Shown in pieces: positions 7,137 to 58,706 of a DNA stretch of 64,000 bases. The DNA is taken from the NCBI GenBank assembly GCA_944382875.1, contig CALWNQ010000045.1, positions 13,275-77,274 of the forward strand, given 5' to 3'. Positions within the stretch are counted from its first letter, which is position 1, and every line of letters starts with the position of its first letter. The notes under the pieces were generated by a model. That model worked only from the letters and a program-made list of their open reading frames with translations, had not been told where the DNA came from and did no database searches. A program made the position numbers and the translations under genes. This DNA is from an uncultured Clostridia bacterium (lineage in GTDB: Bacteria > Bacillota > Clostridia > Oscillospirales > Ruminococcaceae).

Positions 7137-8396
7137 ATGACAGATTATCAGGGACTTTATGAATTTTCGCCGCGGCTTTTGGAGCTGGCCGAAAAAGCCG
7201 AACAAAACTGCCGCGAAATCTTCCGGCAGACCGAGGAAATCCAGGCTTACAACGAAGCCAAGGTCCTCAAAGCCTTTTCGGACAACCGGGTTTCGGCCGC
7301 TCACCTGGTGGGAACGACCGGCTACGGCTACGACGACGCGGGGCGGGACAACCTCGACCGGGTGTTCGCCCAGGCGTTCGGGGCGGAGGACGCCCTTGTC
7401 CGGCACCAGTTTGTTTCGGGCACCCACACCCTTTCCACTGCTCTCTTCGGGGTGCTGCGGACCGGCGACACGGTGGTGTCGGTGACCGGCGCACCCTATG
7501 ACACGATGGAGGAGGTCATCGGCATCCGGGGCGGCAAAACCGGCTCGCTCGCCGAGTTCGGCGTTCATTACCGCCAGATCGAACTGCTCCCGGACGGCAC
7601 TCCTAACTTTGCGGCCATCGAGGAAGCGGCCAAATCGGCCAAAATGATCTATATCCAGCGGTCCCGCGGCTATTCGCTGCGGCCGTCGCTGCGGGTGGAA
7701 ACGATCGGGGAGATCGCCGCCGCTGCCAAGCGCGGCAACCCGGACGTGATCGTCTTTGTGGACAACTGCTACGGCGAGTTTGTCGAAAAGCGGGAGCCCA
7801 CTGAGGTCGGCGCCGACCTGATGGCCGGTTCCCTCATCAAGAATCCGGGCGGCGGCATCGCGCCCACCGGCGGCTATATCGCCGGGCGGGAGGATCTGGT
7901 CGAACTCTGCGGCTACCGCGCCACCTGTCCCGGTATCGGCCGGGAATCCGGCTGCACCCAGGACCAGAACCGCGGGCTCTACCTCGGCTTTTTCCACGCG
8001 CCATCCGCTGTCGCCAACGCGGTGAAAACCTCCTGCTTTGCCTGCGCGCTGTTTGCCGAGCTTGGCTGCCGGACGACGCCGCGGTTTGACGAGCCGCGGA
8101 CCGACATCATCGCCGCCATCGAGCTGGGAAGCCCGGAGCGCCTCTGCGCCTTCTGCCGGGGGATTCAGGCCGGTTCGCCGGTCGATTCCTTCGTCACGCC
8201 GGAGCCTTGGGCGATGCCTGGTTACAGCGACGAGGTGATCATGGCGGCCGGTGCCTTTACGATGGGCGCTTCGCTCGAACTTTCGGCCGACGGGCCGCTG
8301 CGGGAGCCTTACTCGGTCTGGGTACAGGGCGGGCTCACCTACAACACCGGCAAGCTGGGCATCCTCCTGGCCGCACAGGCGATGGAAGGCTGCTGA
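7137..8396 (+). CDS. Aluminium-resistance/YnbB-type PLP-dependent lyase family protein
   Basis: 419 aa. Conserved stretches HQFVSGTHTLS, VDNCYGEF and SLIKNPGGGIAPTGGYIAG are typical of the Met_gamma_lyase (YnbB) family. Confidence 0.8.
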   Translation: MTDYQGLYEFSPRLLELAEKAEQNCREIFRQTEEIQAYNEAKVLKAFSDNRVSAAHLVGTTGYGYDDAGRDNLDRVFAQAFGAEDALVRHQFVSGTHTLSTALFGVLRTGDTVVSVTGAPYDTMEEVIGIRGGKTGSLAEFGVHYRQIELLPDGTPNFAAIEEAAKSAKMIYIQRSRGYSLRPSLRVETIGEIAAAAKRGNPDVIVFVDNCYGEFVEKREPTEVGADLMAGSLIKNPGGGIAPTGGYIAGREDLVELCGYRATCPGIGRESGCTQDQNRGLYLGFFHAPSAVANAVKTSCFACALFAELGCRTTPRFDEPRTDIIAAIELGSPERLCAFCRGIQAGSPVDSFVTPEPWAMPGYSDEVIMAAGAFTMGASLELSADGPLREPYSVWVQGGLTYNTGKLGILLAAQAMEGC

Positions 8397-8415
8397 CCGG
8401 CTGCGAAAGGACGGA

Positions 8416-9594
8416 ATGACAATGAGAAGAAACGCGATTCTTGCCTATGTGGGCTTTATGCTGCTGATGGTGGCGCTCGGCGCCAGCGACGCGATGCGCG
8501 GCGTTTTCATGCCGGTTTTCGGGGAGCATTTTTCGCTTTCCAACTCGCGGCTCTCGATGGTGATCACGGTGAGCTATGTCGGCAACCTGGTCTTCCTGCT
8601 CTTTGGCGGCCGGCTCGCCGACCGCGAAAAACGCAAGCCCGCCTTCCTCTTCGCGGCGCTCCTCTGGGCGGCGGCGCTGGTGTCCTACCTGTTTACCGAC
8701 AACTACCTCTGCCTGCTTGTGGGCATGTTTTTCAGCATGGGCGCTTCCACCCTCACCAGCACCCTCATCAACGTGATGACCTCCTATTTCTTTGCGGCAG
8801 CGCCCGCCGCGATTGTCAGCACTCTCTTTTTCATCCAGAGCATCGGCACCACCGCGAGCCAGAAGTTGGCGGGGGCGTTCGCTTCGGGCTTCGGCTCCTG
8901 GCACGGCGCCAACCTCATCGTGCTGCTGATTGGAGTGGCGGGGATTTTGGTGCTGCTCTTTGTGAGGTTCCCCGACCGGGTGGTGCTGCCCGATGAGGAG
9001 GGGAAAAAGTACGGCTTCCTCAATGCGGCCAAAAACCGGGCGTTCCCGCTCTTTGTCCTGATTTTCGGCTTTTATTTTGTCGCCGAGCACAGCATCATGA
9101 ACTGGTTTGTCCAGATTTCGACCGAGGCCTACTCCCTCACGGTCAACCAGGCGTCGACCTATCTGGCGCTGTTTTTCGGCGGGATCATGGTGGGGCGGCT
9201 CGCCTTCGCGCCGGTGATCCACAAGATCGGCATCAAAGGGAGCATTCTGCTCTTTGGCGGGGTGGCGTTGGTCCTCTACTGCGCCGGCATCCTGATCGGC
9301 AAGGTGGCGCTGCCGGTGCTGGTCGTGTCGGGGCTGAGCTTTTCGATCCTTTATCCCACCCTGGTCATGCTCATCCAGAACTACTACCCGGTAAACGGCA
9401 TCACCACCGCGACCGGCCTGATTATCAGCACGGCCACCCTCTTTGACATCGGCTGGAACGCGGCCTACGGCGTGCTGATCGACCAGCTTGGGGCCAGAGG
9501 CGCCCTTTTGCTGCTGCCTGCGGCGATGGCGCTTTTCTATCTCTGCTGCGTGCTGCTGGCGCGGATCCCGCAGACCAGCTATGTCGCCAAATAA
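8416..9594 (+). CDS. MFS transporter
   Basis: About 392 aa with roughly 12 hydrophobic helices and a GGRLADREKRKP loop between TM2 and TM3 (MFS motif A-like). Start moved from 8251 to ATG 8416, because the upstream extension overlaps ynbB and is Arg/Pro/Trp-rich. Confidence 0.8.
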   Translation: MTMRRNAILAYVGFMLLMVALGASDAMRGVFMPVFGEHFSLSNSRLSMVITVSYVGNLVFLLFGGRLADREKRKPAFLFAALLWAAALVSYLFTDNYLCLLVGMFFSMGASTLTSTLINVMTSYFFAAAPAAIVSTLFFIQSIGTTASQKLAGAFASGFGSWHGANLIVLLIGVAGILVLLFVRFPDRVVLPDEEGKKYGFLNAAKNRAFPLFVLIFGFYFVAEHSIMNWFVQISTEAYSLTVNQASTYLALFFGGIMVGRLAFAPVIHKIGIKGSILLFGGVALVLYCAGILIGKVALPVLVVSGLSFSILYPTLVMLIQNYYPVNGITTATGLIISTATLFDIGWNAAYGVLIDQLGARGALLLLPAAMALFYLCCVLLARIPQTSYVAK

Positions 9595-9606
9595 AATGTG
9601 CCGCCT

Positions 9607-9631
9607 GCGGTCCCGATGGGGCCGCTTTTTT
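9607..9631 (+). terminator. Intrinsic terminator of the MFS gene
   Basis: GCGGTCCC-GAT-GGGGCCGC hairpin (8 bp, one G-U) followed by TTTTTT. Begins 13 nt after the stop codon. Confidence 0.7.
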
Positions 9632-10092
9632 CTTTTCCCCAAAAGTTTTCCACCGGGGTGGAAGAAAGACAGAAAGGCGCGGATATCTTTCGTTTTCGTA
9701 TCGTTTTGTTTTGTTTAGTTTTTTTTAAAGGAAGATATGGGGGTTTTTGTTCCGCTGTTGTTCCGCTTGTTCTTCCGTTCTGATTCCGTCTTTGTTCCGT
9801 TTTTCTTCCGGTTACTCGATGTGGAAAACCCGTGAAGCCCCGCCATTACTGGATTTGCGGGTTCCGAAACTTTCCCGCTTTTTTTCCGTAAAGTTCCCGT
9901 TATTTTCACCGCTTTTGTCCCGAAGGCCAAAATCAGCTGGAATTTTTCCACATTCCCACTTTCTGAATGTGAATTCCACGTGGGATGTGAAATTCTTTTC
10001 ACATTTTCACATGCTCTGTCCCGATAAGAAGATTATAGCACATTCCAAAGGGAATGTCAAGGCTTCGGAAAACGCACTCGAGTGTCCTTCTC
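9632..10092. other. AT-rich, T-skewed gene-free island between convergent genes
   Basis: Hand-counted GC is about 40% against about 60% in flanking genes. Neither strand has an ORF with plausible composition or RBS. Dense in direct and inverted repeats (see findings). Confidence 0.7.
9750..9899 (+). repeat. Helically phased TTCCG/TTCCCG repeat array (about 11-bp period)
   Basis: TTCCG at 9750, 9761, 9773, 9784, 9795 and 9806 (spacings 11, 12, 11, 11, 11). After a 56-bp gap (5 x 11.2) the motif recurs at 9862, 9872 (TTCCCG), 9884 and 9894 (TTCCCG). Each copy sits in a T-rich context. Confidence 0.75.
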
Positions 10093-10093
10093 C

Positions 10094-10126
10094 CAAAAAA
10101 AAGAGCAGGGACCAAATGGCCCCTGC
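10094..10126 (-). terminator. Intrinsic terminator of the FucI-family isomerase/mutarotase operon
   Basis: On the minus strand, GCAGGGGCC-ATTT-GGTCCCTGC (9 bp, one G-U) is followed by TCTTTTTTTTGGG. Begins 16 nt downstream of the stop at 10142. Confidence 0.65.
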
Positions 10127-10141
10127 CCGGAGTTTTTGGGT

Positions 10142-11623
10142 TTACGCGAACGGGTTTTCGTCCTTGTAGAGCATGGATTTCGGCTGGTTGAAGGCAACGT
10201 CTTCGATGCCGAGGAATTGAAAGATGCTCCAGAGCGCCTTGCCGCAGTGCGCGAAGGCAACCGCGCCGTGGTGCGGGTAGTGCTTGGCAATCAGCACATG
10301 GCGATAGAAGCGGCCCATTTCGGGGATGGCGAAGACACCGATGCCGCCGAACGAGTTGGTCGGAACGGGGAGGACTTCGCCCTCGGCGATGTAAGCCTGG
10401 AGGGTGGCGTCCGCGTTGCCGTGGAGCCGGAAGAAGGTGATCTCGCCGGGGGCAATGTCGCCTTCGAGGGTGCCGCGGGTGATGTCCGGGGTGCCGCCGT
10501 TTTCGAGGAGGCGGTTCTGGATGAGCTGGTATTTGATGCCGCCGTCACAGAGCTTGCAATTGGGGGTATTGCCGCAGTGGAAGCCCATGAACAGGTCGGT
10601 GTGGGCATAGGGATATTTACCTGCGATGCCGTCTTTGTACTGGTCGGCGGGAACCGAGTTGTTGATGTCGAGCAGAGTGACGGCATCTCCGGTAACGCAG
10701 GCGCCGATGTATTCGCTCAGCGCGCCGTAGATATCCACTTCGCAGGCAACCGGGATGCCGCGGGAAGCGAGCCGGCTGTTGACATAGCAGGGTTCAAAGC
10801 CGAATTCGTTCGGGAATGCCGGCCAGCATTTATTTGCAAAAACAACATATTCGCGGTCGCCCTTGTTAGCTTCTGCCCAGTCGAGAAGTGTCAGCTCATA
10901 CTGCGCCATCCGCTCGAGCAGGTCGGGGTACTGATTGCCCTTGCCGAGTTCGGCGGTCATATCCTCGATGACCGACGGGATGCGGGCGTCGTCCTTGTGG
11001 GCGCGGTAGCTGACCAGCAGGTCGAGCTCGGAGTTCTCCTGAATCTCGACGCCGAGGTCATAGAGCGGCTTGATGGGGGCGTTGCAGGCGAAGAAGTCCT
11101 GCGGACGGGGCCCAAAGGTGATGATCTTGAGATTTGCCACACCAATGAGCGCTTTTGCGACCGGCAGGAAATCCTTTGCCATCGCGGCGATGTCGTCGGC
11201 GGTGCCAACGGGATATTCGGGGATGTAGGCCGGGATTTTGCGCAGGCCAAGGTTGTACGAGCAGTTGAGCATGCCGCAGTAGGCGTCGCCGCGGCCGTTG
11301 ATGAGGTCCTTGCTGCTCTCTTCGGCGGCAGCCGCGTACATCACGGGGCCGTCAAAGTGTTTGGCAATCAGAGTTTCGGGGGTTTCGGGGCCAAAGTTGC
11401 CGAGGAAGACGATCAGCGCGTTGCAGCCGGCAGCCTTCACGTCGGCGACAGCTTTCTGCATGTCCTTTTCGCTTTCCACAGTAACCTTGCTCTCGTAAAG
11501 GTCAACGCCGATTTTGGCGCAGCTCTCAGTAATCGCGGCGCGGCGGCGTTCCGACAGCGAGATGACAAAGCAGTCGCGGCTGACGGCGATGAGGCCGAGC
11601 TTTACTTCCGGAATGTTTTTCAT
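10142..11623 (-). CDS. L-fucose/L-arabinose isomerase family protein
   Basis: About 493 aa. N-terminal KLGLIAVSRDCF...LIVFLGNFGPE and C-terminal GIPVACEVDIYGALSEY...FMGFHCGN resemble FucI-family sugar isomerases. Start set at ATG 11623, 6 nt after AAAGGAGAG; the track start at 11641 overlaps the RBS. Confidence 0.75.
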   Translation of the reverse strand: MKNIPEVKLGLIAVSRDCFVISLSERRRAAITESCAKIGVDLYESKVTVESEKDMQKAVADVKAAGCNALIVFLGNFGPETPETLIAKHFDGPVMYAAAAEESSKDLINGRGDAYCGMLNCSYNLGLRKIPAYIPEYPVGTADDIAAMAKDFLPVAKALIGVANLKIITFGPRPQDFFACNAPIKPLYDLGVEIQENSELDLLVSYRAHKDDARIPSVIEDMTAELGKGNQYPDLLERMAQYELTLLDWAEANKGDREYVVFANKCWPAFPNEFGFEPCYVNSRLASRGIPVACEVDIYGALSEYIGACVTGDAVTLLDINNSVPADQYKDGIAGKYPYAHTDLFMGFHCGNTPNCKLCDGGIKYQLIQNRLLENGGTPDITRGTLEGDIAPGEITFFRLHGNADATLQAYIAEGEVLPVPTNSFGGIGVFAIPEMGRFYRHVLIAKHYPHHGAVAFAHCGKALWSIFQFLGIEDVAFNQPKSMLYKDENPFA

Positions 11624-11644
11624 AGGGGACTCTCCTTTCACAAA

Positions 11645-28966: not shown

Positions 28967-29138
28967 TGTCGGCAGTTGACCCGGCTGTCCGTCTGGCCTT
29001 GACCTGCAAAGGAAGCAGGTGGTCAAGAATATTTGCATGGAGAAGAAGCAACAGCATTCCATACAAACTTATGATAACAGAATGGGGGGGAATTGTCAAG
29101 ACATTTTTCGGCAAAATCCGGTTTGGTAAACCGAAAAG

Positions 29139-43874: not shown

Positions 43875-43903
43875 TTGACACGGGGAAAATATTGTTGTAT
43901 AAT
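43875..43903 (+). promoter_or_regulatory. Consensus sigma-A promoter upstream of rpoB
   Basis: TTGACA (43875-43880), exactly 17-nt spacer, TATAAT (43898-43903). About 250 nt upstream of the rpoB start. Confidence 0.6.
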
Positions 43904-44156: not shown

Positions 44157-47954
<3,798 letters not shown>

Positions 47955-47972: not shown

Positions 47973-51497
<3,525 letters not shown>

Positions 51498-51517
51498 TCA
51501 AAATCCACAGAAACGGA

Positions 51518-51552
51518 CAAAAAAACGGGGGCGCTTTCGTCCCTGTTTTTTT
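51518..51552 (+). terminator. Intrinsic terminator after rpoC
   Basis: A-tract, then ACGGGGGCG-CTTT-CGTCCCTGT (9 bp, two G-U), then TTTTTT. Confidence 0.6.
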
Positions 51553-51562
51553 GTGGAAACTG

Positions 51563-51591
51563 TTGACATTCTGACGAAATCATGATACAAT
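51563..51591 (+). promoter_or_regulatory. Promoter of the str operon (rpsL-rpsG-fusA-tuf)
   Basis: TTGACA, 17-nt spacer, TACAAT, with a TGn extended -10 (TGATACAAT). Confidence 0.6.
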
Positions 51592-51660
51592 GAACAAGTA
51601 TGTTAGGGATGAATATTCCAAAGATTCCCGGACATAAACAAATAAGTAAGGAGGTGCCAT

Positions 51661-52086
51661 ATGCCAACCTTTAACCAGCTTGTAAGAAAAGGCAGAGAGA
51701 TGCAGCAGTATAAGTCCACCGCTCCTGCGCTGAACCGTGGTTACAACTCCATGAAAAAGGAGCCTACCGATCAGAGTTCTCCTCAGAAACGCGGCGTCTG
51801 CACTGCGGTTAGAACCCAGACCCCGAAAAAACCGAACTCTGCGCTTCGTAAAATCGCAAGAGTCCGGCTCAGCAACGGGATGGAAGTTTCCGCTTATATC
51901 CCCGGCGTCGGACACAATCTGCAGGAACACTCCGTTGTTCTGATCAGAGGCGGCCGTGTTAAGGACCTGCCTGGTGTGCGTTACCACATCATCCGCGGAA
52001 CTCTGGATACCCAGGGCGTAAACGGAAGAATGCAGGGCCGTTCCAAATACGGTGCCAAGCGTCCGAAAGCTGGTGCGAAGAAGTAA
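51661..52086 (+). CDS. rpsL: 30S ribosomal protein S12
   Basis: 141 aa. [11 protein letters not shown]...KKPNSALRK...VRYHIIRG. Confidence 0.97.
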
Positions 52087-52230
52087 GCTTCCAGCAGTTG
52101 CTGGGAACCTTTCGGCTGATGGCAGCTTTTCTCATAATGCAAAACGCGTTGTGCAAAAGCTCCTATTGGGCTGACGAGGGTTTTTACTTTCGAGTACCGA
52201 TGAATTCATTCTGTGAAGGAGGGAAGTAAA

Positions 52231-52701
52231 GTGCCAAGAAGAGGTCAAATTGCAAAACGCGATGTTTTGCCCGATCCGATGTATAATTCCAAACTTGTAA
52301 CCCGTCTGATCAACAACGTGATGTATGACGGCAAAAAGGGCGTTGCTCAGAAGATTGTTTACGGTGCATTTGAAATCGTAGGCGAGAAAACTGGCAAGGA
52401 TGCTCTCGAAGCATTCCAGGAGGCTCTTGAAAACATCATGCCCGTTCTGGAGGTTAAATCCCGCCGTGTCGGTGGTGCAACCTACCAGGTTCCGATGGAA
52501 GTTCGTCCTGAGCGCAGACAAACTCTGGGCTTGAGATGGCTCACCACTTATTCCAGAAACCGTTCTGAAAAGACCATGAAGGAGCGTCTGGCTGGTGAGA
52601 TCATGGACGCGCTGAACAATACTGGCGGTGCCTGCAAGAAACGTGAGGATACTCATAAGATGGCAGAGGCCAACAAGGCGTTCGCGCATTACAGATGGTA
52701 A
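52231..52701 (+). CDS. rpsG: 30S ribosomal protein S7
   Basis: 156 aa beginning (M)[22 protein letters not shown] start 52231 behind AAGGAGGG. The track start at 52213 lies inside the RBS. Confidence 0.95.
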
Positions 52702-52791
52702 TCGAGTTACCACTGTAAGAGTCCGGATGACAGCATCCGGTACGGCGGCCCACATTCCGGGCCGCATTTTATATTCAAATAGGAGGATATT

Positions 52792-54873
52792 ATGCCAAGA
52801 GACGTATCTCTCGAAATGACTCGTAATATTGGTATAATGGCTCACATCGACGCAGGAAAGACCACCGCAACCGAGCGTATTCTGTATTATACCGGCAAAA
52901 CGCACAAGATCGGCGACACCCATGAGGGTACTGCGACGATGGACTGGATGGCGCAGGAGCAGGAACGGGGTATTACGATTACTTCTGCTGCTACGACTGC
53001 TTTCTGGAAAGGCCATCGCATCAATATTATCGATACTCCCGGCCACGTTGACTTTACAGTAGAAGTGGAGCGTTCTCTCCGCGTTCTGGATGGTTCGGTG
53101 ACCGTGTTCTGTGCAAAAGGCGGCGTAGAGCCTCAGTCTGAAACCGTATGGCATCAGGCGAGCAATTACAAGGTTCCTCGCATGGCTTTTGTGAATAAGA
53201 TGGACATCATGGGTGCAGACTTCTACAATGTTATCAACATGATGAAGGATCGATTGAAATGTCACCCGGTTCCGATTCAGCTTCCTATTGGCGCAGAGGA
53301 TACTTTTGTCGGTATTATCGACCTGATGGAAATGAAAGCCTACATTTATAACGACGAATTGGGCAACGACATTTCTGTCACCGATATCCCTGCGGATATG
53401 GTAGAAAAAGCGGAACAATATCATGCGGAAATGGTAGAAGCAATTGCAGAAACCAATGATGACCTGATGGAAAAGTACCTTGAAGAAGAGGAACTTTCTA
53501 TTGAGGAACTCAAAAAGGGACTGCGTGCTGCGACTATTGATAACACACTGGTTCCGGTTTGCTGCGGTACCGCTTACCGCAACAAAGGCGTTCAGAAACT
53601 TTTGGATGCAATCGTTGATTATATGCCTTCTCCAATCGATATCCCGCCAATCAAAGGTATCGATCCGGAAACCGGCGAGGAAACTGTTCGGCATTCTTCG
53701 GATACAGAACCGTTCTCCGCTTTGGCATTTAAGATTATGACCGACCCCTTTGTCGGGAAACTCTGCTTCTTCCGTGTTTACTCCGGTACCGTTGATGCGG
53801 GCGCAACCGTATACAACGCAACCAAGGGCAAATCCGAAAGAATGGGCCGTATTCTGATGATGCATGCAAACCATCGCCAGGATATCGAAACCTGCTACGC
53901 TGGCGATATTGCGGCTGCGGTTGGCTTGAAGCAGACCACTACCGGTGATACCCTCTGCGATCCCAAACATGAAGTTATTTTGGAATCCATGGAGTTCCCG
54001 GAGCCCGTTATCCGCGTTGCAATCGAGCCGAAAACCAAGGCAAGCCAGGAAAAGATGGGTATTGCTCTCGCGAAGCTCGCTGAAGAAGACCCCACTTTCC
54101 GCACTTACACCGATGAAGAAACCGGCCAGACCATTATTGCTGGTATGGGCGAGCTCCATCTGGAAATTATTGTTGACCGTCTGCTTCGTGAGTTCAAGGT
54201 AGAAGCAAATGTCGGTAAGCCCCAGGTTGCTTATCGTGAGACAATCCGCAAGGAAACTGATGTTGAGTGTAAATACGCTCGTCAGTCTGGTGGTAAAGGT
54301 CAATACGGTCATGTTAAGATTCGCGTTTACCCGAACGAGGCAGGAAAAGGCTACGAATTTGAGAATAAGGTTGTCGGCGGTGCAATTCCGAAGGAATATA
54401 TTCCCGCTGTTGACGCCGGTATCCAGGGCGCAATGCAGTCTGGTGTTCTCGCGGGCTATCCTGTTGTAGATATCCGCGTTGAGCTGTACGACGGTTCTTA
54501 CCATGAAGTCGACTCCTCTGAAATGGCATTTAAGATTGCCGGTTCTATGGCGTTGAAAGACGCTCTGCGTAAAGGTAACCCTGTTATCCTTGAGCCTATT
54601 ATGAAAGTTGTTGTCATTGTCCCGGAACAGTACATGGGCGATGTTATTGGCGACTTGAACTCCCGCCGTGGCCAGATCCAGGGTATGGAAGCCAGAAACG
54701 GTGTGGAAGAGATCCGCGCAATGGTTCCGCTGTCGGAAATGTTCGGCTATGCTACCGACCTTCGTTCTAAGACACAGGGACGTGGTCAGTATACAATGGA
54801 ACCGAGCCATTACACCGAAGTACCGAAATCCGTTTCGGAAGACATTATCTCTAAGAGAGCAAAGCAGGCATAA
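52792..54873 (+). CDS. fusA: Elongation factor G
   Basis: 693 aa. [29 protein letters not shown]. Confidence 0.97.
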
Positions 54874-54923
54874 TCACTGCGTGCTTTCCCAAATAACCTG
54901 AAAATTAAAGGAGGAAAATCCAA

Positions 54924-56123
54924 ATGGCAAAACAGAAATTTGAACGTACCAAACCCCATGTAAACATTGGTACAATCGGACACGTTGACCACGGCAAAAC
55001 CACCCTGACCGCTGCTATCACCAAAACTCTGGCTATGCAGGGCAAGGCTAAATTTGAAGCTTATGACATGATCGATAAAGCTCCTGAAGAAAGAGCTCGT
55101 GGTATCACAATCAACACCGCTCACGTTGAGTATGAGACCGACAAGCGTCACTACGCTCACGTTGACTGCCCCGGCCATGCTGACTATGTTAAAAACATGA
55201 TCACCGGTGCTGCTCAGATGGACGGCGCTATTCTGGTTGTTTCCGCTTCTGACGGTCCCATGCCTCAGACCCGTGAGCACATCCTGCTCTCCCGTCAGGT
55301 TGGCGTGCCTTATATCGTTGTGTTCATGAACAAATGCGACCAGGTTGACGACGAAGAGCTGCTCGACCTCGTTGAAATGGAAATTCGTGAACTGCTGAAC
55401 GAGTATGACTTCCCCGGCGACGACACCCCCATCATCCGTGGTTCTGCGCTGGCTGCTCTGGAAGCTCCCGAAGATATTAACAACCCCGCTTACAAACCGA
55501 TCCTCGAACTGATGGATGCTGTTGACGAGTGGATCCCCACTCCTGAGCGTGACGACAACAAGCCCTTCCTGATGCCTGTTGAAGACGTCTTCACCATCAC
55601 CGGACGCGGCACCGTTGCTACCGGCCGTGTTGAGCGTGGTACTGTTAAAGTTGGTGACGAAGTTGAAATCGTCGGCCTGAAAGAAGAAAAAGCGAAAACC
55701 ACCGTTACTGGTGTTGAAATGTTCCGCAAACTTCTTGACTTTGCTGAAGCTGGTGACAACATCGGTGCTCTGCTCCGTGGTGTTCAGCGTTCTGAGATTG
55801 AACGTGGTCAGGTTCTCTGCAAACCCGGCACCATTCATCCTCATACCAAATTCCACTGCTCTGTATACGTCCTGAAGAAAGAAGAAGGCGGCCGTCATAA
55901 ACCTTTCTTTAACAACTACCGTCCTCAGTTCTACTTCCGTACTACTGACGTTACCGGCATCATCACTCTGCCCGAAGGCACTGAGATGGCTATGCCCGGC
56001 GATAACCTCGAGTTTGACGTTGAGCTGATTACCCCTATCGCAATCGAAGAAGGTCTGCGTTTCGCTATTCGTGAAGGCGGCCGTACCGTTGGTTCCGGCG
56101 TTGTTTCCAAGATCAACGAATAA
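54924..56123 (+). CDS. tuf: Elongation factor Tu
   Basis: 399 aa. [25 protein letters not shown]. Confidence 0.97.
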
Positions 56124-56140
56124 TCTCTTTTGCCAAACAA

Positions 56141-56173
56141 AACCCCGGTTTATGCCGGGGTTTTTCTTTTTTT
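56141..56173 (+). terminator. Intrinsic terminator after tuf
   Basis: AACCCCGGT-TTAT-GCCGGGGTT followed by TTTCTTTTTTT. Confidence 0.8.
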
Positions 56174-56289
56174 GAAAATATGAAATTTTAGAAACAAGAA
56201 CTTGCAAATAGCAGGATGCTGATGGAATTCAAAAACGCAAAAGATCTTTTGTATAATATGCGGAAAACTAATTTTTTACAGTAAAACTA

Positions 56290-57700
<1,411 letters not shown>

Positions 57701-57723
57701 GAGAATCCCAGATTATGCGAGAA

Positions 57724-57758
57724 GGTCCGGTATCCGGTTCGGGTATCGGGCCTTTTTT
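57724..57758 (+). terminator. Intrinsic terminator after gdhA
   Basis: GGTCCGGTATCC-GGTTC-GGGTATCGGGCC (12 bp including G-U pairs) followed by TTTTTT. Confidence 0.65.
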
Positions 57759-57821
57759 CCACTTGTAAAGACAAGGTAAACCTGATATAATAAGGGTACA
57801 GATTTAATGGGAGGCGATTGC

Positions 57822-58706
57822 ATGTATCAGGATGCGGAAGGAAAGTGCTGGTGGAAAGGAAATCTTCACACGCATACAACCCGTTCGGACGGCTTGAAAT
57901 CCCCAAAAGAAGCAGAAGCGCTCTATCGCATGAACGGATATGACTTTCTTGCGATCACCGACCATTGGAAATTTTTAGAAACGCGGCAAGAAAACGGATT
58001 CCTGCTGCTTTCGGGCTGTGAGTACGATGTTGGAAAGGCGGCTCGCGCAGAAACCGGCATTTACCATATCGTTTCGATTGGGGCGGCGCAGGAACCTTCT
58101 TTAAAAAGAAGAGAAGGTCTGACCGCCAACGAAGTGCTAAACGCAATCGGGGAAGCGGGTGGTTTTGCTGTGCTGGCGCATCCGGCATGGTCGCTCAACC
58201 GGCCGGATGAGATTGAAAAGCTGCGGGGAGTGGGTGCTGCCGAGGTCTACAACACCTTTTCCGGATTGCCCTGGAACGGCCGCCGCGCTGATTCGTCGGG
58301 GATTCTCGATACCCTTGCGGCGGCGGGCAGTCTTTTGCCTTTTGTTGCAGCGGACGACACCCATCTTTATGCGGGAGAGGAGTGCCGCTCCTTTATTTGG
58401 GTGGAAGCGCCGGAGCTGACCGCCGGCGCCATCCTTGCTTCACTGCGGGAGGGACGGTTTTACGCATCCCAGGGGCCGAAACTTGCGGTTTCGGTTTCGG
58501 ACGGCAAAGTGCAGGTAGATTGCAGTCCCGTTTCGGCAGTTATATTCTACTCCAATTTGGTCTGGTCGGCCGGGCGGGTGATACAGGGCGACAGCCTTAC
58601 CAATGTTACCTATTCCCTCAAATCGGGCGAAAATTTTATCCGGGTGGAGGCAATCGACGCACTGGGCCGAATTGCGTGGAGCTCCCCGGTCGCAGTGGGG
58701 AGGTAG
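57822..58706 (+). CDS. PHP-domain metallohydrolase (CehA/McbA-like)
   Basis: WWKGNLHTHTTRSDG...DFLAITDHW...LAHP...AADDTH motifs. Start at ATG 57822 behind GGGAGG. Confidence 0.7.
   Translation: MYQDAEGKCWWKGNLHTHTTRSDGLKSPKEAEALYRMNGYDFLAITDHWKFLETRQENGFLLLSGCEYDVGKAARAETGIYHIVSIGAAQEPSLKRREGLTANEVLNAIGEAGGFAVLAHPAWSLNRPDEIEKLRGVGAAEVYNTFSGLPWNGRRADSSGILDTLAAAGSLLPFVAADDTHLYAGEECRSFIWVEAPELTAGAILASLREGRFYASQGPKLAVSVSDGKVQVDCSPVSAVIFYSNLVWSAGRVIQGDSLTNVTYSLKSGENFIRVEAIDALGRIAWSSPVAVGR

What the first reader, a model, noticed from the sequence alone, without database searches (positions are those of the whole stretch)
9632..10092. AT-rich gene-free island with TTCCG motifs phased at about 11 bp, nested palindromes and DnaA-box-like 9-mers
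Between the terminators of two convergent genes lies 460 bp of about 40% GC, against about 60% in the flanks. The plus strand is strongly T-rich, and neither strand has a credible ORF. TTCCG occurs at 9750, 9761, 9773, 9784, 9795 and 9806. After a gap of five helical turns it recurs at 9862, 9872, 9884 and 9894. The copies therefore lie on one face of the helix over about 150 bp. That pattern fits tandem half-sites for an OmpR/PhoB-type or other oligomerising DNA-binding protein, or intrinsically curved DNA. The island also holds several other repeats:
- TTTTCCACA twice in opposite orientation (9944-9952 forward, 9820-9828 reverse), one mismatch from the DnaA-box consensus TTATCCACA
- the palindrome TTCCACC-GG-GGTGGAA (9648-9663)
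- the inverted repeat CACATTCCCAC ... GTGGGATGTG (9949-9988)
- ACATTCC-N4-GGAATGT (10040-10057)
- CACTCGAGTG (10075-10084)
Nothing in standard annotation explains this density of structure.
Basis: seen in the sequence. Interest (0 to 1): 0.6.

Follow-up and report, generated by a model that had tools for sequence, protein, structure and literature searches.

The report
Repeat-bearing small RNA gene candidate
The AT-rich gap between two sugar-use genes of an uncultured chicken-gut Clostridia bacterium is most likely a strongly promoted non-coding RNA gene whose middle is a fast-changing row of CGG(G)AA motifs spaced 11 bases apart; no known RNA family matches it and its function is untested.

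Summary
The island has 42-47% GC against about 60% in the flanks. CGGAA/CGGGAA (TTCCG/TTCCCG on the + strand) occurs 10-12 times in two phased 11-nt arrays, far above chance.

A perfect extended sigma-A promoter (TTGACA-17-TGnTATAAT, 10060-10032, minus strand) fires into the arrays. The only other perfect promoter in the 64 kb drives rpoB.

Other strains of the same species carry different alleles:
- The -35, -10 and TG elements never change, although neighbouring bases do.
- One helix pair runs C-G, then U·G, then U-A. This path fits only a minus-strand RNA.
- The array is replaced wholesale, for example by five CGGGAAAA units, but keeps its core and its 11-12-nt period.
- The 3' module is identical in the one fully compared allele (9595-9748). 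An 83-nt part of it recurs at a second locus.

No ORF is conserved. The DnaA-like boxes are lost or mutated in the other allele. Predicted curvature depends on the allele.

The best reading is a new 285-390-nt sRNA gene with a multivalent repeat platform, acting as a protein decoy or base-pairing RNA. A DNA-level protein-binding array is not excluded. Transcript evidence is one read.

The parts
10032..10060 (-). Sigma-A-type promoter TTGACA-17-TATAAT with an extended -10 TG. The inferred transcription start is about A10025.
   Evidence: It matches 12 of 12 positions plus TG. It is one of only two perfect matches in the 64 kb; the other drives rpoB. The -35, -10 and TG elements are unchanged in alleles L193, X11, X10 and X26. 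Meanwhile 10038, 10046, 10050, 10061, 10062, 10067, 10068 and 10072 vary.
10040..10057 (.). Palindrome ACATTCC-N4-GGAATGT in the promoter spacer, a likely operator for an unknown repressor. A weaker copy lies at 9971-9988.
   Evidence: The half-sites are kept in L193 and X11. X26 has one inner-base change.
9925..10025 (-). 5' domain with hairpins. P1 is GUGAA/UUCAC (about 10002-9987). P2 is UCCCAC/GUGGGA (9985-9980 paired with 9959-9954).
   Evidence: RNAalifold on two alleles keeps both helices and finds one compensatory pair. The pair 9984/9955 is C-G in the window, U·G in X11 and U-A in L193. The domain is 87% identical between alleles and has a 7-nt indel.
9862..9926 (-). Upstream array. 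CGGGAA/CGGAA cores start at 9899, 9888, 9877 and 9866 with 11-nt spacing. An outlier lies at 9922 and a GCGGUGAAAA unit precedes the array.
   Evidence: In L193 this stretch aligns unit by unit with that allele's first GCGGGAAA units, preceded by the shared GCGGU(G/A)AAAA unit, so it is retained in diverged form rather than lost.
9812..9861 (-). Spacer between the arrays. It holds the hairpin CCCGC...GCGGG and the UUUUCCACAU arm, which is complementary to AUGUGGAAAA at 9953-9944. It is absent from L193.
   Evidence: (I6, I8).
9750..9811 (-). Main array of six CGGAA units with period 11-12 nt and an invariant core.
   Evidence: Alleles differ in unit sequence and number.
9683..9749 (-). Conserved 3' module: C5, then the CU-rich AUAUCUUCCUUU, then an A-rich tract of about 30 nt, then AACGAAAGAUAU. 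It can form a stem enclosing an A-rich loop.
   Evidence: It is 100% identical in L193, L194 and L192. The stretch 9686-9768 recurs with 7 mismatches at a second locus in four metagenomes, at about the same depth as the island contig. The inverted repeat is I7.
9640..9682 (-). Pyrimidine-rich tract followed by the hairpin UUCCAC-CCCG-GUGGAA and AACUUUU. This is a weak candidate terminator, so the 3' end is uncertain.
   Evidence: The terminator scan does not flag it. The stem and the U-run are altered in L192.
9607..9632 (+). Intrinsic terminator of the MFS gene, marking the left border of the island.
10095..10128 (-). Intrinsic terminator of the isomerase operon, about 40 nt upstream of the island promoter.

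Best explanation
The island is an independent gene for a non-coding RNA on the minus strand. A consensus-strength sigma-A promoter (10060-10032) carries a palindromic operator in its spacer. It starts an RNA at about 10025. The RNA runs through a hairpin-containing 5' domain and then two purine-rich tandem arrays of CGG(G)AA motifs spaced 11 nt apart. It continues through a conserved 3' module (C5, a CU-rich tract and an A-rich loop) and ends near 9640 or at the MFS terminator. The length is about 390 nt here and about 285 nt in another allele.

The most likely mechanism is that the array is a multivalent, largely single-stranded landing platform that binds and titrates many copies of an RNA-binding protein. 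This would be a CsrB/CrcZ-like decoy with a different motif. The conserved 3' module would give stability or a second contact.

Shown: the promoter and its selective conservation; the non-coding nature; core-versus-spacer selection in the repeats; array turnover between strains; one strand-specific covarying pair.

Inferred: that the RNA accumulates, where it ends, and that it acts by protein titration.
For: - Promoter: 12/12 match plus TG, matched in the 64 kb only by the rpoB promoter.
- Promoter conservation: the hexamers and TG are invariant in four alleles while adjacent positions change.
- Setting: the island has its own promoter directly after the isomerase terminator.
- No conserved ORF on either strand between alleles. 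Six nucleotide changes in the one shared frame give 4 replacements and 2 silent changes.
- Helix pair 9984/9955 goes C-G, then U·G, then U-A. This path is tolerated only in the minus-strand RNA.
- The CGG(G)AA core is invariant within arrays while the spacers drift (p = 0.003). The motif is enriched with 0/5000 shuffles reaching the count.
- In other strains the array is rebuilt from different units but keeps the core and the 11-12-nt period.
- The 3' module is identical across the three alleles that could be aligned there (L192, L193, L194). An 83-nt part recurs at a second locus of similar depth, which suggests a small gene family.
- RNA data: in the one RNA-seq metagenome, 1 of 3 read-sized near-identical pieces in 40 kb falls in the 0.4-kb island.
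Against: - Transcript evidence is a single read-sized contig from a library that may contain DNA.
- No good intrinsic terminator is present, and the candidate hairpin is altered in one strain.
- The whole RNA folds no better than shuffles (z = -1.1).
- The cores are not predicted to be especially unpaired: 0.35 against 0.48 for other bases in the window allele.
- The motif fits the CsrA consensus A(N)GGA only at chance level: 4 sites against 3.7 expected.
- No Rfam family matches.
- Nothing like the island lies at the syntenic spot in the nearest relatives, whose MFS is 69-75% identical.
- The 5' domain evolves faster (87% identity) than the flanking genes (96-100%).
- An 11-nt period also equals the DNA helical repeat used by DNA-binding arrays.
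Confidence: 0.4

Rival explanations
1. The island encodes a base-pairing sRNA. The functional part would be the conserved 3' module: the CCCCC and AUAUCUUCCUUU tract is an anti-Shine-Dalgarno-like seed, as in the C-rich seeds of RoxS/RsaE-type Firmicute sRNAs. The array would be a fast-evolving spacer or minisatellite with little function of its own.
For: - The 3' module is the only part that is 100% identical in the alleles compared and that is shared with the second locus.
- It is complementary to a canonical ribosome-binding site followed by AUG (AAAGGAAGAUAUGGGGG).
- The arrays are freely replaced between strains.
- The promoter evidence is the same as for the best explanation.
Against: - The invariant 5-nt core against drifting spacers, and retention of core and period in rebuilt arrays, argue that the array itself is under selection.
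- The CU-rich tract is predicted to be sequestered in a stem with AACGAAAGAUAU (I7).
- No target could be sought without the genome.
Confidence: 0.2
2. The repeats act at the DNA level. They would be an array of direct-repeat sites on one face of the helix for an oligomerising DNA-binding protein. The candidates are iterons of an orphan or satellite replication origin, a plasmid-type centromere (parC or tubC style), or winged-helix response-regulator sites. The neighbouring A/T-rich tract would serve as an unwinding or wrapping region.
For: - The 11-bp period is kept in all alleles, and the phase is roughly kept across the 56-bp gap.
- The layout of two clusters plus an A-rich tract resembles phage origins. 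In IMG/VR, 11-bp arrays sit in the middle of DnaD-like or O-like initiator genes and are followed by A-rich short repeats.
- Strain-level hypervariability fits specificity switching.
Against: - No initiator, partition or regulator gene adjoins the island, and both neighbours are metabolic genes ending there.
- The arrays lie inside a strongly transcribed unit, not at a regulated promoter.
- Any hexamer repeated at 11 bp gives about 90 to more than 117 phage contigs, so there is no specific link to ACGGAA.
- No similarity to any phage or plasmid record.
- The DnaA-like boxes are not conserved.
- The U·G intermediate in the 5' helix points to RNA.
Confidence: 0.2
3. The array has no present function. 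It would be an unstable AT-rich minisatellite or a relic of a mobile element in a tolerant convergent gap, with a promoter that is fortuitous or left over.
For: - The island is absent at the syntenic site of the nearest relatives.
- The arrays turn over between strains, and assemblies break there.
- The 5' domain evolves faster than the flanking genes.
Against: - A chance 12/12 promoter in 460 bp is about 1e-4 likely, and its hexamers are kept in four alleles amid nearby changes.
- The core is invariant while the spacers drift.
- The 3' module is identical in the alleles compared and shared with a second locus.
Confidence: 0.1
4. The DNA is intrinsically curved (phased A-tracts) and serves as a nucleoid-protein or topological element.
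For: The L193 array (CGGGAAAA at 11 bp) is predicted at the 99.9th percentile of curvature. The window's upstream array reaches the 98.8th percentile.
Against: - The window's main array is ordinary (51st-91st percentile), so curvature is not conserved across alleles.
Confidence: 0.05
5. The island encodes a small basic protein with a repeat region on the minus strand (95 aa here, 62 aa in L193; both end in KTPISSFKKN).
For: Open frames run through the array in both alleles and share the same stop.
Against: - The frames upstream differ between alleles because of a 7-nt indel, and the start codons are not shared.
- There is no Shine-Dalgarno sequence.
- Purine-rich, T-poor sequence lacks stop codons by composition.
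- An 11-nt unit cannot encode a repeat peptide.
- Gene callers placed no gene here in four assemblies.
Confidence: 0.03

Closest known systems
CsrB/CsrC and RsmX/Y/Z, the CsrA/RsmA-sequestering sRNAs of Gammaproteobacteria
   Same: Both are stand-alone RNAs of 300-400 nt with their own strong promoter. Both carry ten or more repeated GGA-containing motifs. Both evolve quickly by unit gain and loss. Several paralogous copies per genome are common, and a second locus is hinted at here.
   Different: - The host is a Firmicute (Clostridia). In that phylum CsrA is known to be antagonised by the protein FliW, not by sRNAs (abstracts of bioRxiv 10.1101/2020.07.02.184341 and PMC4894983, listed).
- The motif is CGG(G)AA in a strict 11-nt tandem, not A(N)GGA in hairpin loops.
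- There is no Rfam match.
- The promoter carries a different palindrome, not a GacA/UvrY box.
- Presence of csrA is unknown.
CrcZ/CrcY, the Hfq/Crc-titrating sRNAs of Pseudomonas with repeated A-rich motifs (comparison from my own knowledge)
   Same: Both are RNAs of about 400 nt with several unstructured purine-rich repeats. The island RNA is also A-rich, with AAYAA runs in its 3' module.
   Different: The motif, the phylum, and a tandem rather than dispersed arrangement all differ. Nothing was tested.
Iterons of lambdoid and Firmicute phage origins inside the initiator gene, and parC of plasmid R1 with two clusters of five 11-bp repeats (the parC comparison is from my own knowledge)
   Same: All have direct repeats at an 11-bp period, in clusters, next to an A/T-rich tract. 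In the phage contigs searched here, such arrays lie 350-450 nt into DnaD-like or O-like initiator genes.
   Different: - No initiator or ParR/ParM gene lies nearby.
- The array lies in a transcribed non-coding unit of a chromosome.
- There is no sequence relation to phages or plasmids.
- The unit sequence is not special among 11-bp phage repeats.
Pho-box-type direct repeats bound by OmpR/PhoB-family regulators
   Same: Both have head-to-tail short repeats with an 11-bp period.
   Different: Pho boxes overlap or precede the -35 element of a regulated promoter and number 2-6. Here 10-12 sites lie at about +104 to +276 with no downstream gene.

Membership tests
CsrB/RsmZ-type CsrA sponge RNA | Match to an Rfam covariance model of the family or clan | tested here: not met
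   No CsrB/Rsm or TwoAYGGAY hit, even at E <= 10 or E <= 1 for allele L193.
CsrB/RsmZ-type CsrA sponge RNA | Many A(N)GGA sites, mostly in hairpin loops | tested here: not met
   There are 16 GGA against 11.2 +/- 2.2 expected, a mild excess (111 of 5000 shuffles reach it). A.GGA occurs 4 times against 3.7 expected. The cores are not preferentially unpaired or in loops. The L193 units read GCGGGAA.
CsrB/RsmZ-type CsrA sponge RNA | csrA gene in the same genome | not testable with these tools
There is no csrA, fliW or hfq in the 64-kb window.
CsrB/RsmZ-type CsrA sponge RNA | Discrete transcript with its own promoter and terminator | tested here: inconclusive
   The promoter is perfect and conserved. 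The terminator is weak. RNA evidence is one read.
Iteron-type replication origin or plasmid centromere | Tandem direct repeats at about one helical turn, next to an A/T-rich tract | tested here: met
   Spacings are 11/11/11, a gap of 56, then 11/11/11/12/11. The A-rich tract lies at 9686-9726.
Iteron-type replication origin or plasmid centromere | Cognate initiator or partition gene adjacent to, or containing, the repeats | tested here: not met
   The neighbours are an MFS transporter, a FucI-like isomerase, an epimerase and a methionine gamma-lyase. The repeats lie in no conserved ORF.
Iteron-type replication origin or plasmid centromere | Conserved DnaA boxes or relation to a known replicon | tested here: not met
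   The two TTTTCCACA boxes are deleted or mutated in L193. There is no match in plasmids or phages.
OmpR/PhoB-type regulator binding array | Direct repeats placed at or upstream of the -35 element of a regulated promoter | tested here: not met
   The only promoter is 10060-10032 on the minus strand. The arrays lie downstream of its start, and both flanking genes terminate at the island.
Intrinsically curved DNA | High predicted curvature kept across alleles | tested here: not met
   The L193 array is at the 99.9th percentile and the window's main array at the 51st-91st (wedge table from memory).

The most novel reading that the evidence does not exclude
A family of CsrB-like multivalent decoy RNAs exists in gut Clostridia. 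In that phylum CsrA-type regulators are thought to be controlled by proteins only. Its binding array would be rebuilt from strain to strain, so that the valency or specificity of the decoy is rapidly retuned or is in conflict with something such as a phage factor.
Probability: 0.12. Interest if true: 0.8.

Novelty: new variant of a known kind. Interest (0 to 1): 0.45.

Why it matters
Repeat-bearing decoy RNAs that soak up global RNA-binding proteins are well established only in Proteobacteria. A Clostridia example with a different motif would widen that principle. It would also point to an unknown RNA-binding regulator in abundant but uncultured gut bacteria.

The allele series is unusual for an sRNA gene: identical flanks, an invariant promoter, and an array swapped wholesale while keeping its core and period. 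It offers a natural experiment on how repeat valency evolves.

If the repeats instead act on DNA, this would be an orphan iteron-like array inside a strongly transcribed unit, which is also undescribed. Either way the element is testable, because it is compact and has a promoter likely to work in model Firmicutes.

Tried and rejected
- Synteny through the isomerase in genome contigs: the best hits are only 78% identical and spread over phyla, and none carries the array.
- Synteny through the MFS gene: relatives at 69-75% identity have other genes, or only 39 nt, downstream and no island.
- Metagenome pattern scan for the conserved block: one chance hit in a low-GC coding region.
- Viral scan for the 3' module: nothing.
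- blastn of the island parts against all 390 fetched loci: only pattern-selected or low-complexity hits.
- Specific link to phage origins: rejected, because control hexamers at an 11-bp period are as frequent as ACGGAA.
- Plus-strand small ORF with SD and ATG at 9737: the peptide differs completely after residue 4 in L193, and the ATG is disrupted at the second locus.
- Minus-strand 95-aa ORF: not conserved.
- DnaA-box reading: not conserved.
- Origin or terminus of the chromosome: no GC-skew switch at the island.
- Shared operator elsewhere in the window: none.
- G-quadruplex: GGG runs occur in only one allele.
- More RNA-seq: only one RNA run holds the sequence.

Full report
**What is there.** The stretch 9632-10092 is a gene-free island of 42-47% GC in a genome of about 60% GC. 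Its + strand is strongly T-rich. It lies between two convergent genes: an MFS transporter (8422-9594, +) and a FucI-family isomerase (10142-11641, -). Each gene has its own intrinsic terminator. Two of the ten 'TTCCG' copies (9872, 9894) are TTCCCG.

Read on the minus strand, the motif is CGGAA/CGGGAA. Copies start at 9922, 9899, 9888, 9877 and 9866, and then at 9810, 9799, 9788, 9777, 9765 and 9754. The spacings are 11/11/11, then a gap of 56, then 11/11/11/12/11. This is far beyond chance:
- CGGAA-N6-CGGAA occurs four times in the 64 kb, all here, against 0.5 expected.
- CGG(G)AA occurs 10 times against 2.3 +/- 1.4 in shuffles, with 0 of 5000 shuffles reaching 10.
- In the six-unit array the five core bases never vary, while the spacers do (0/30 against 9/36, p = 0.003).

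**The feature that changes the reading.** A perfect sigma-70/sigma-A promoter lies on the minus strand at 10060-10032: TTGACA, 17 nt, TATAAT, with the extended -10 TG. It points into the arrays. Only two perfect matches exist in the whole window, and the other one drives rpoB (43875-43903). So in this organism the consensus marks very strong promoters.

The promoter follows the isomerase terminator by about 40 nt, so it heads a separate unit. From a start near A10025 the RNA would contain:
- a 5' domain with hairpins;
- the two purine-rich arrays;
- a CCCCC/AUAUCUUCCUUU tract and an A-rich tract of about 30 nt;
- a pyrimidine-rich tract and a weak hairpin with UUUU at 9663-9640.

Rfam has nothing for it in either allele.

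**Organism and relatives.** The sequence is held by chicken-gut metagenomes. The nearest named relative of the MFS protein is a Candidatus Merdivicinus MAG at 72% identity. Relatives with MFS proteins at 69-75% identity have no island at the syntenic place. Searches of phage and plasmid records, of IMG/VR and of JGI metagenomes for the island or its conserved block found nothing real.

**Alleles within the species carry the main evidence.** Contigs L082 and L083 are identical to the window. L193 and L194 come from another strain. Their flanking genes are 96-100% identical to the window's, but the intergenic gap is 103 nt shorter. In that allele:
- The promoter hexamers, the TG and both operator half-sites are unchanged.
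- The 5' domain is 87% identical and has a 7-nt insertion.
- The 3' part (9595-9748) is 100% identical.
- The whole repeat region is rebuilt. The upstream part remains alignable unit by unit in diverged form. The spacer and most of the main array are missing. The result is a single run, GCGGUAAAAACA followed by five GCGGGAAA(A)-type units at 11-12-nt spacing.

Loose ends and contigs from further runs show at least two more array versions:
- X26 has CGGGAAAUUGA units.
- X11 has the window-type array with about 4% substitutions, joined to an L193-like 5' domain.

Across window, L193, X11/X10 and X26 the -35, -10 and TG elements never change. In contrast, positions 10038, 10046, 10050, 10061, 10062, 10067, 10068 and 10072 do change.

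One pair of the predicted helix CACAUCCCAC/GUGGGAAUGUG, at positions 9984/9955, differs between alleles. It is C-G in the window, U·G in X11 and U-A in L193. The wobble intermediate is acceptable only in the minus-strand RNA. This is a single pair, so the support is modest.

**A second locus.** In four metagenomes a different contig type matches 9686-9768 with 7 mismatches. That stretch is the 3' module plus the first array units. The flanks are unrelated, and the array continues as CGGAAGAACAAG, then CGGUAAAACAAG, and so on. Its depth tracks that of the island contig: 10.1 vs 8.4, 4.2 vs 4.8, 4.0 vs 3.79, and 10.8 vs 6.4. This suggests a paralogue in the same genome. I could not fetch it.

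**Not coding.** The longest frames are 95 aa on the minus strand and 32 aa and 140 aa on the plus strand (with an SD-like AAAGGAAGAU before the ATG at 9737). They are not kept between alleles. The plus-strand peptide differs after residue 4, and its ATG is disrupted at the second locus. The minus-strand frames are shifted by the 7-nt indel and have different starts. Gene callers placed no gene there in four assemblies. Open frames are expected in T-poor sequence.

**DNA-level readings.** An 11-bp period is what arrays of DNA-binding proteins use. A scan of IMG/VR for ACGGAA repeated three times at 11 bp gave 100 phage contigs. In most, the array lies 350-450 nt into a 250-330-codon gene. Nine of the ten genes tested match PHROG replication-initiator or DnaD-like loader families. 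These are classical origins inside the initiator gene, followed by A-rich short repeats, which is a layout like the island's.

Two control hexamers at the same period gave 86 and more than 117 contigs. The resemblance is therefore generic, not a sequence link. The island also has no initiator, partition or regulator gene beside it.

The two DnaA-like 9-mers are lost or mutated in L193. There is no GC-skew switch. Response-regulator sites should sit at a promoter's -35 element, but these lie at about +104 to +276.

I computed curvature with a dinucleotide wedge model. Curvature is extreme for the L193 array (99.9th percentile of the window) and high for the window's upstream array (98.8th). It is ordinary for the main array (51st-91st percentile). 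Curvature is therefore not the conserved property.

**RNA evidence is thin.** Only one run labelled RNA-seq holds the sequence. In 40 kb of the window it has three read-sized, near-identical pieces. One lies at 9702-9846 inside the island. That gives roughly p = 0.03 for enrichment, and DNA carry-over is possible.

The RNA as a whole does not fold better than shuffles (z = -1.1). The cores are not predicted to be especially exposed. The candidate terminator is weak and is altered in strain L192.

**Mechanism.** I put about 0.65 on 'a real non-coding RNA gene on the minus strand'. Within that, the most likely role of the array is a multivalent platform that binds many copies of an RNA-binding protein. 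This would work like CsrB/RsmZ or CrcZ (0.4 overall, counting the gene call). The grounds are that the short core is selected while the spacers, the unit number and even the unit type are free, which is how decoy RNAs evolve.

It is not a member of the CsrB family:
- No model matches it.
- A(N)GGA is at chance level.
- There is no GacA-type box.
- Firmicute CsrA is known to be countered by FliW rather than by sRNAs (abstracts listed).

The main RNA rival is a base-pairing sRNA whose seed is the conserved C-rich/CU-rich 3' module (0.2). A DNA-level binding array remains possible (0.2). The remainder is junk or relic (0.1), curved DNA (0.05) and a small protein (0.03).

**Verdict.** The element is best described as a candidate new sRNA gene with a hypervariable 11-nt repeat array, limited so far to one uncultured species plus a probable second locus. 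Interest is moderate, because nothing about function is tested. The conserved-promoter and swapped-array allele series is unusual and easy to follow up.

Noticed in passing
window 28969-29025 (-): Rfam hit to the ldcC RNA motif (RF02440, SpF59) at 69.3 bits against a gathering score of 37.2. It lies just upstream of the polyamine operon leader that earlier notes called riboswitch-like.
   Followed up: no
window 43875-43903 (+): This is the only other perfect TTGACA-17-TATAAT promoter in the 64 kb. It lies about 250 nt upstream of rpoB (44157-47954), with a long leader.
   Followed up: partly
IMG/VR loci L091-L190, e.g. L099:689-1573, L117:2731-3567, L164:4070-4197: Tandem repeats with an 11-bp period are very common in phage contigs. 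Any of three hexamers tried gives about 90 to more than 117 contigs. They typically lie 350-450 nt into replication-initiator genes (DnaD-like or O-like), followed by A-rich short repeats. Some non-coding arrays reach about 20 units.
   Followed up: partly
window 9686-9768 versus unfetched contigs in runs X4, X10, X11 and X19: A second locus shares this 83-nt module (7 mismatches) with different flanks, such as TTTGCGGTTTTTTTGGCCGCAGGCTCCCTT. Its depth is like that of the island contig, so it is probably a paralogue in the same genome.
   Followed up: partly
window 8335-9642 (-): A 435-codon open frame runs antisense to the MFS gene and starts inside the island. It is most likely a shadow frame of a GC-rich gene. 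If the island RNA reads through its weak terminator, it would be antisense to the MFS 3' end.
   Followed up: no
window 50000-58000: GC falls to 0.48-0.52 against 0.55-0.62 elsewhere in the window. This may be a horizontally acquired segment.
   Followed up: no
L001-L080 (genome contigs): The FucI-like isomerase has relatives at 70-78% identity scattered over Oscillospiraceae, Lachnospiraceae, Negativicutes, Spirochaetes and Succinivibrionaceae. This looks like frequent horizontal transfer of the sugar cluster.
   Followed up: no
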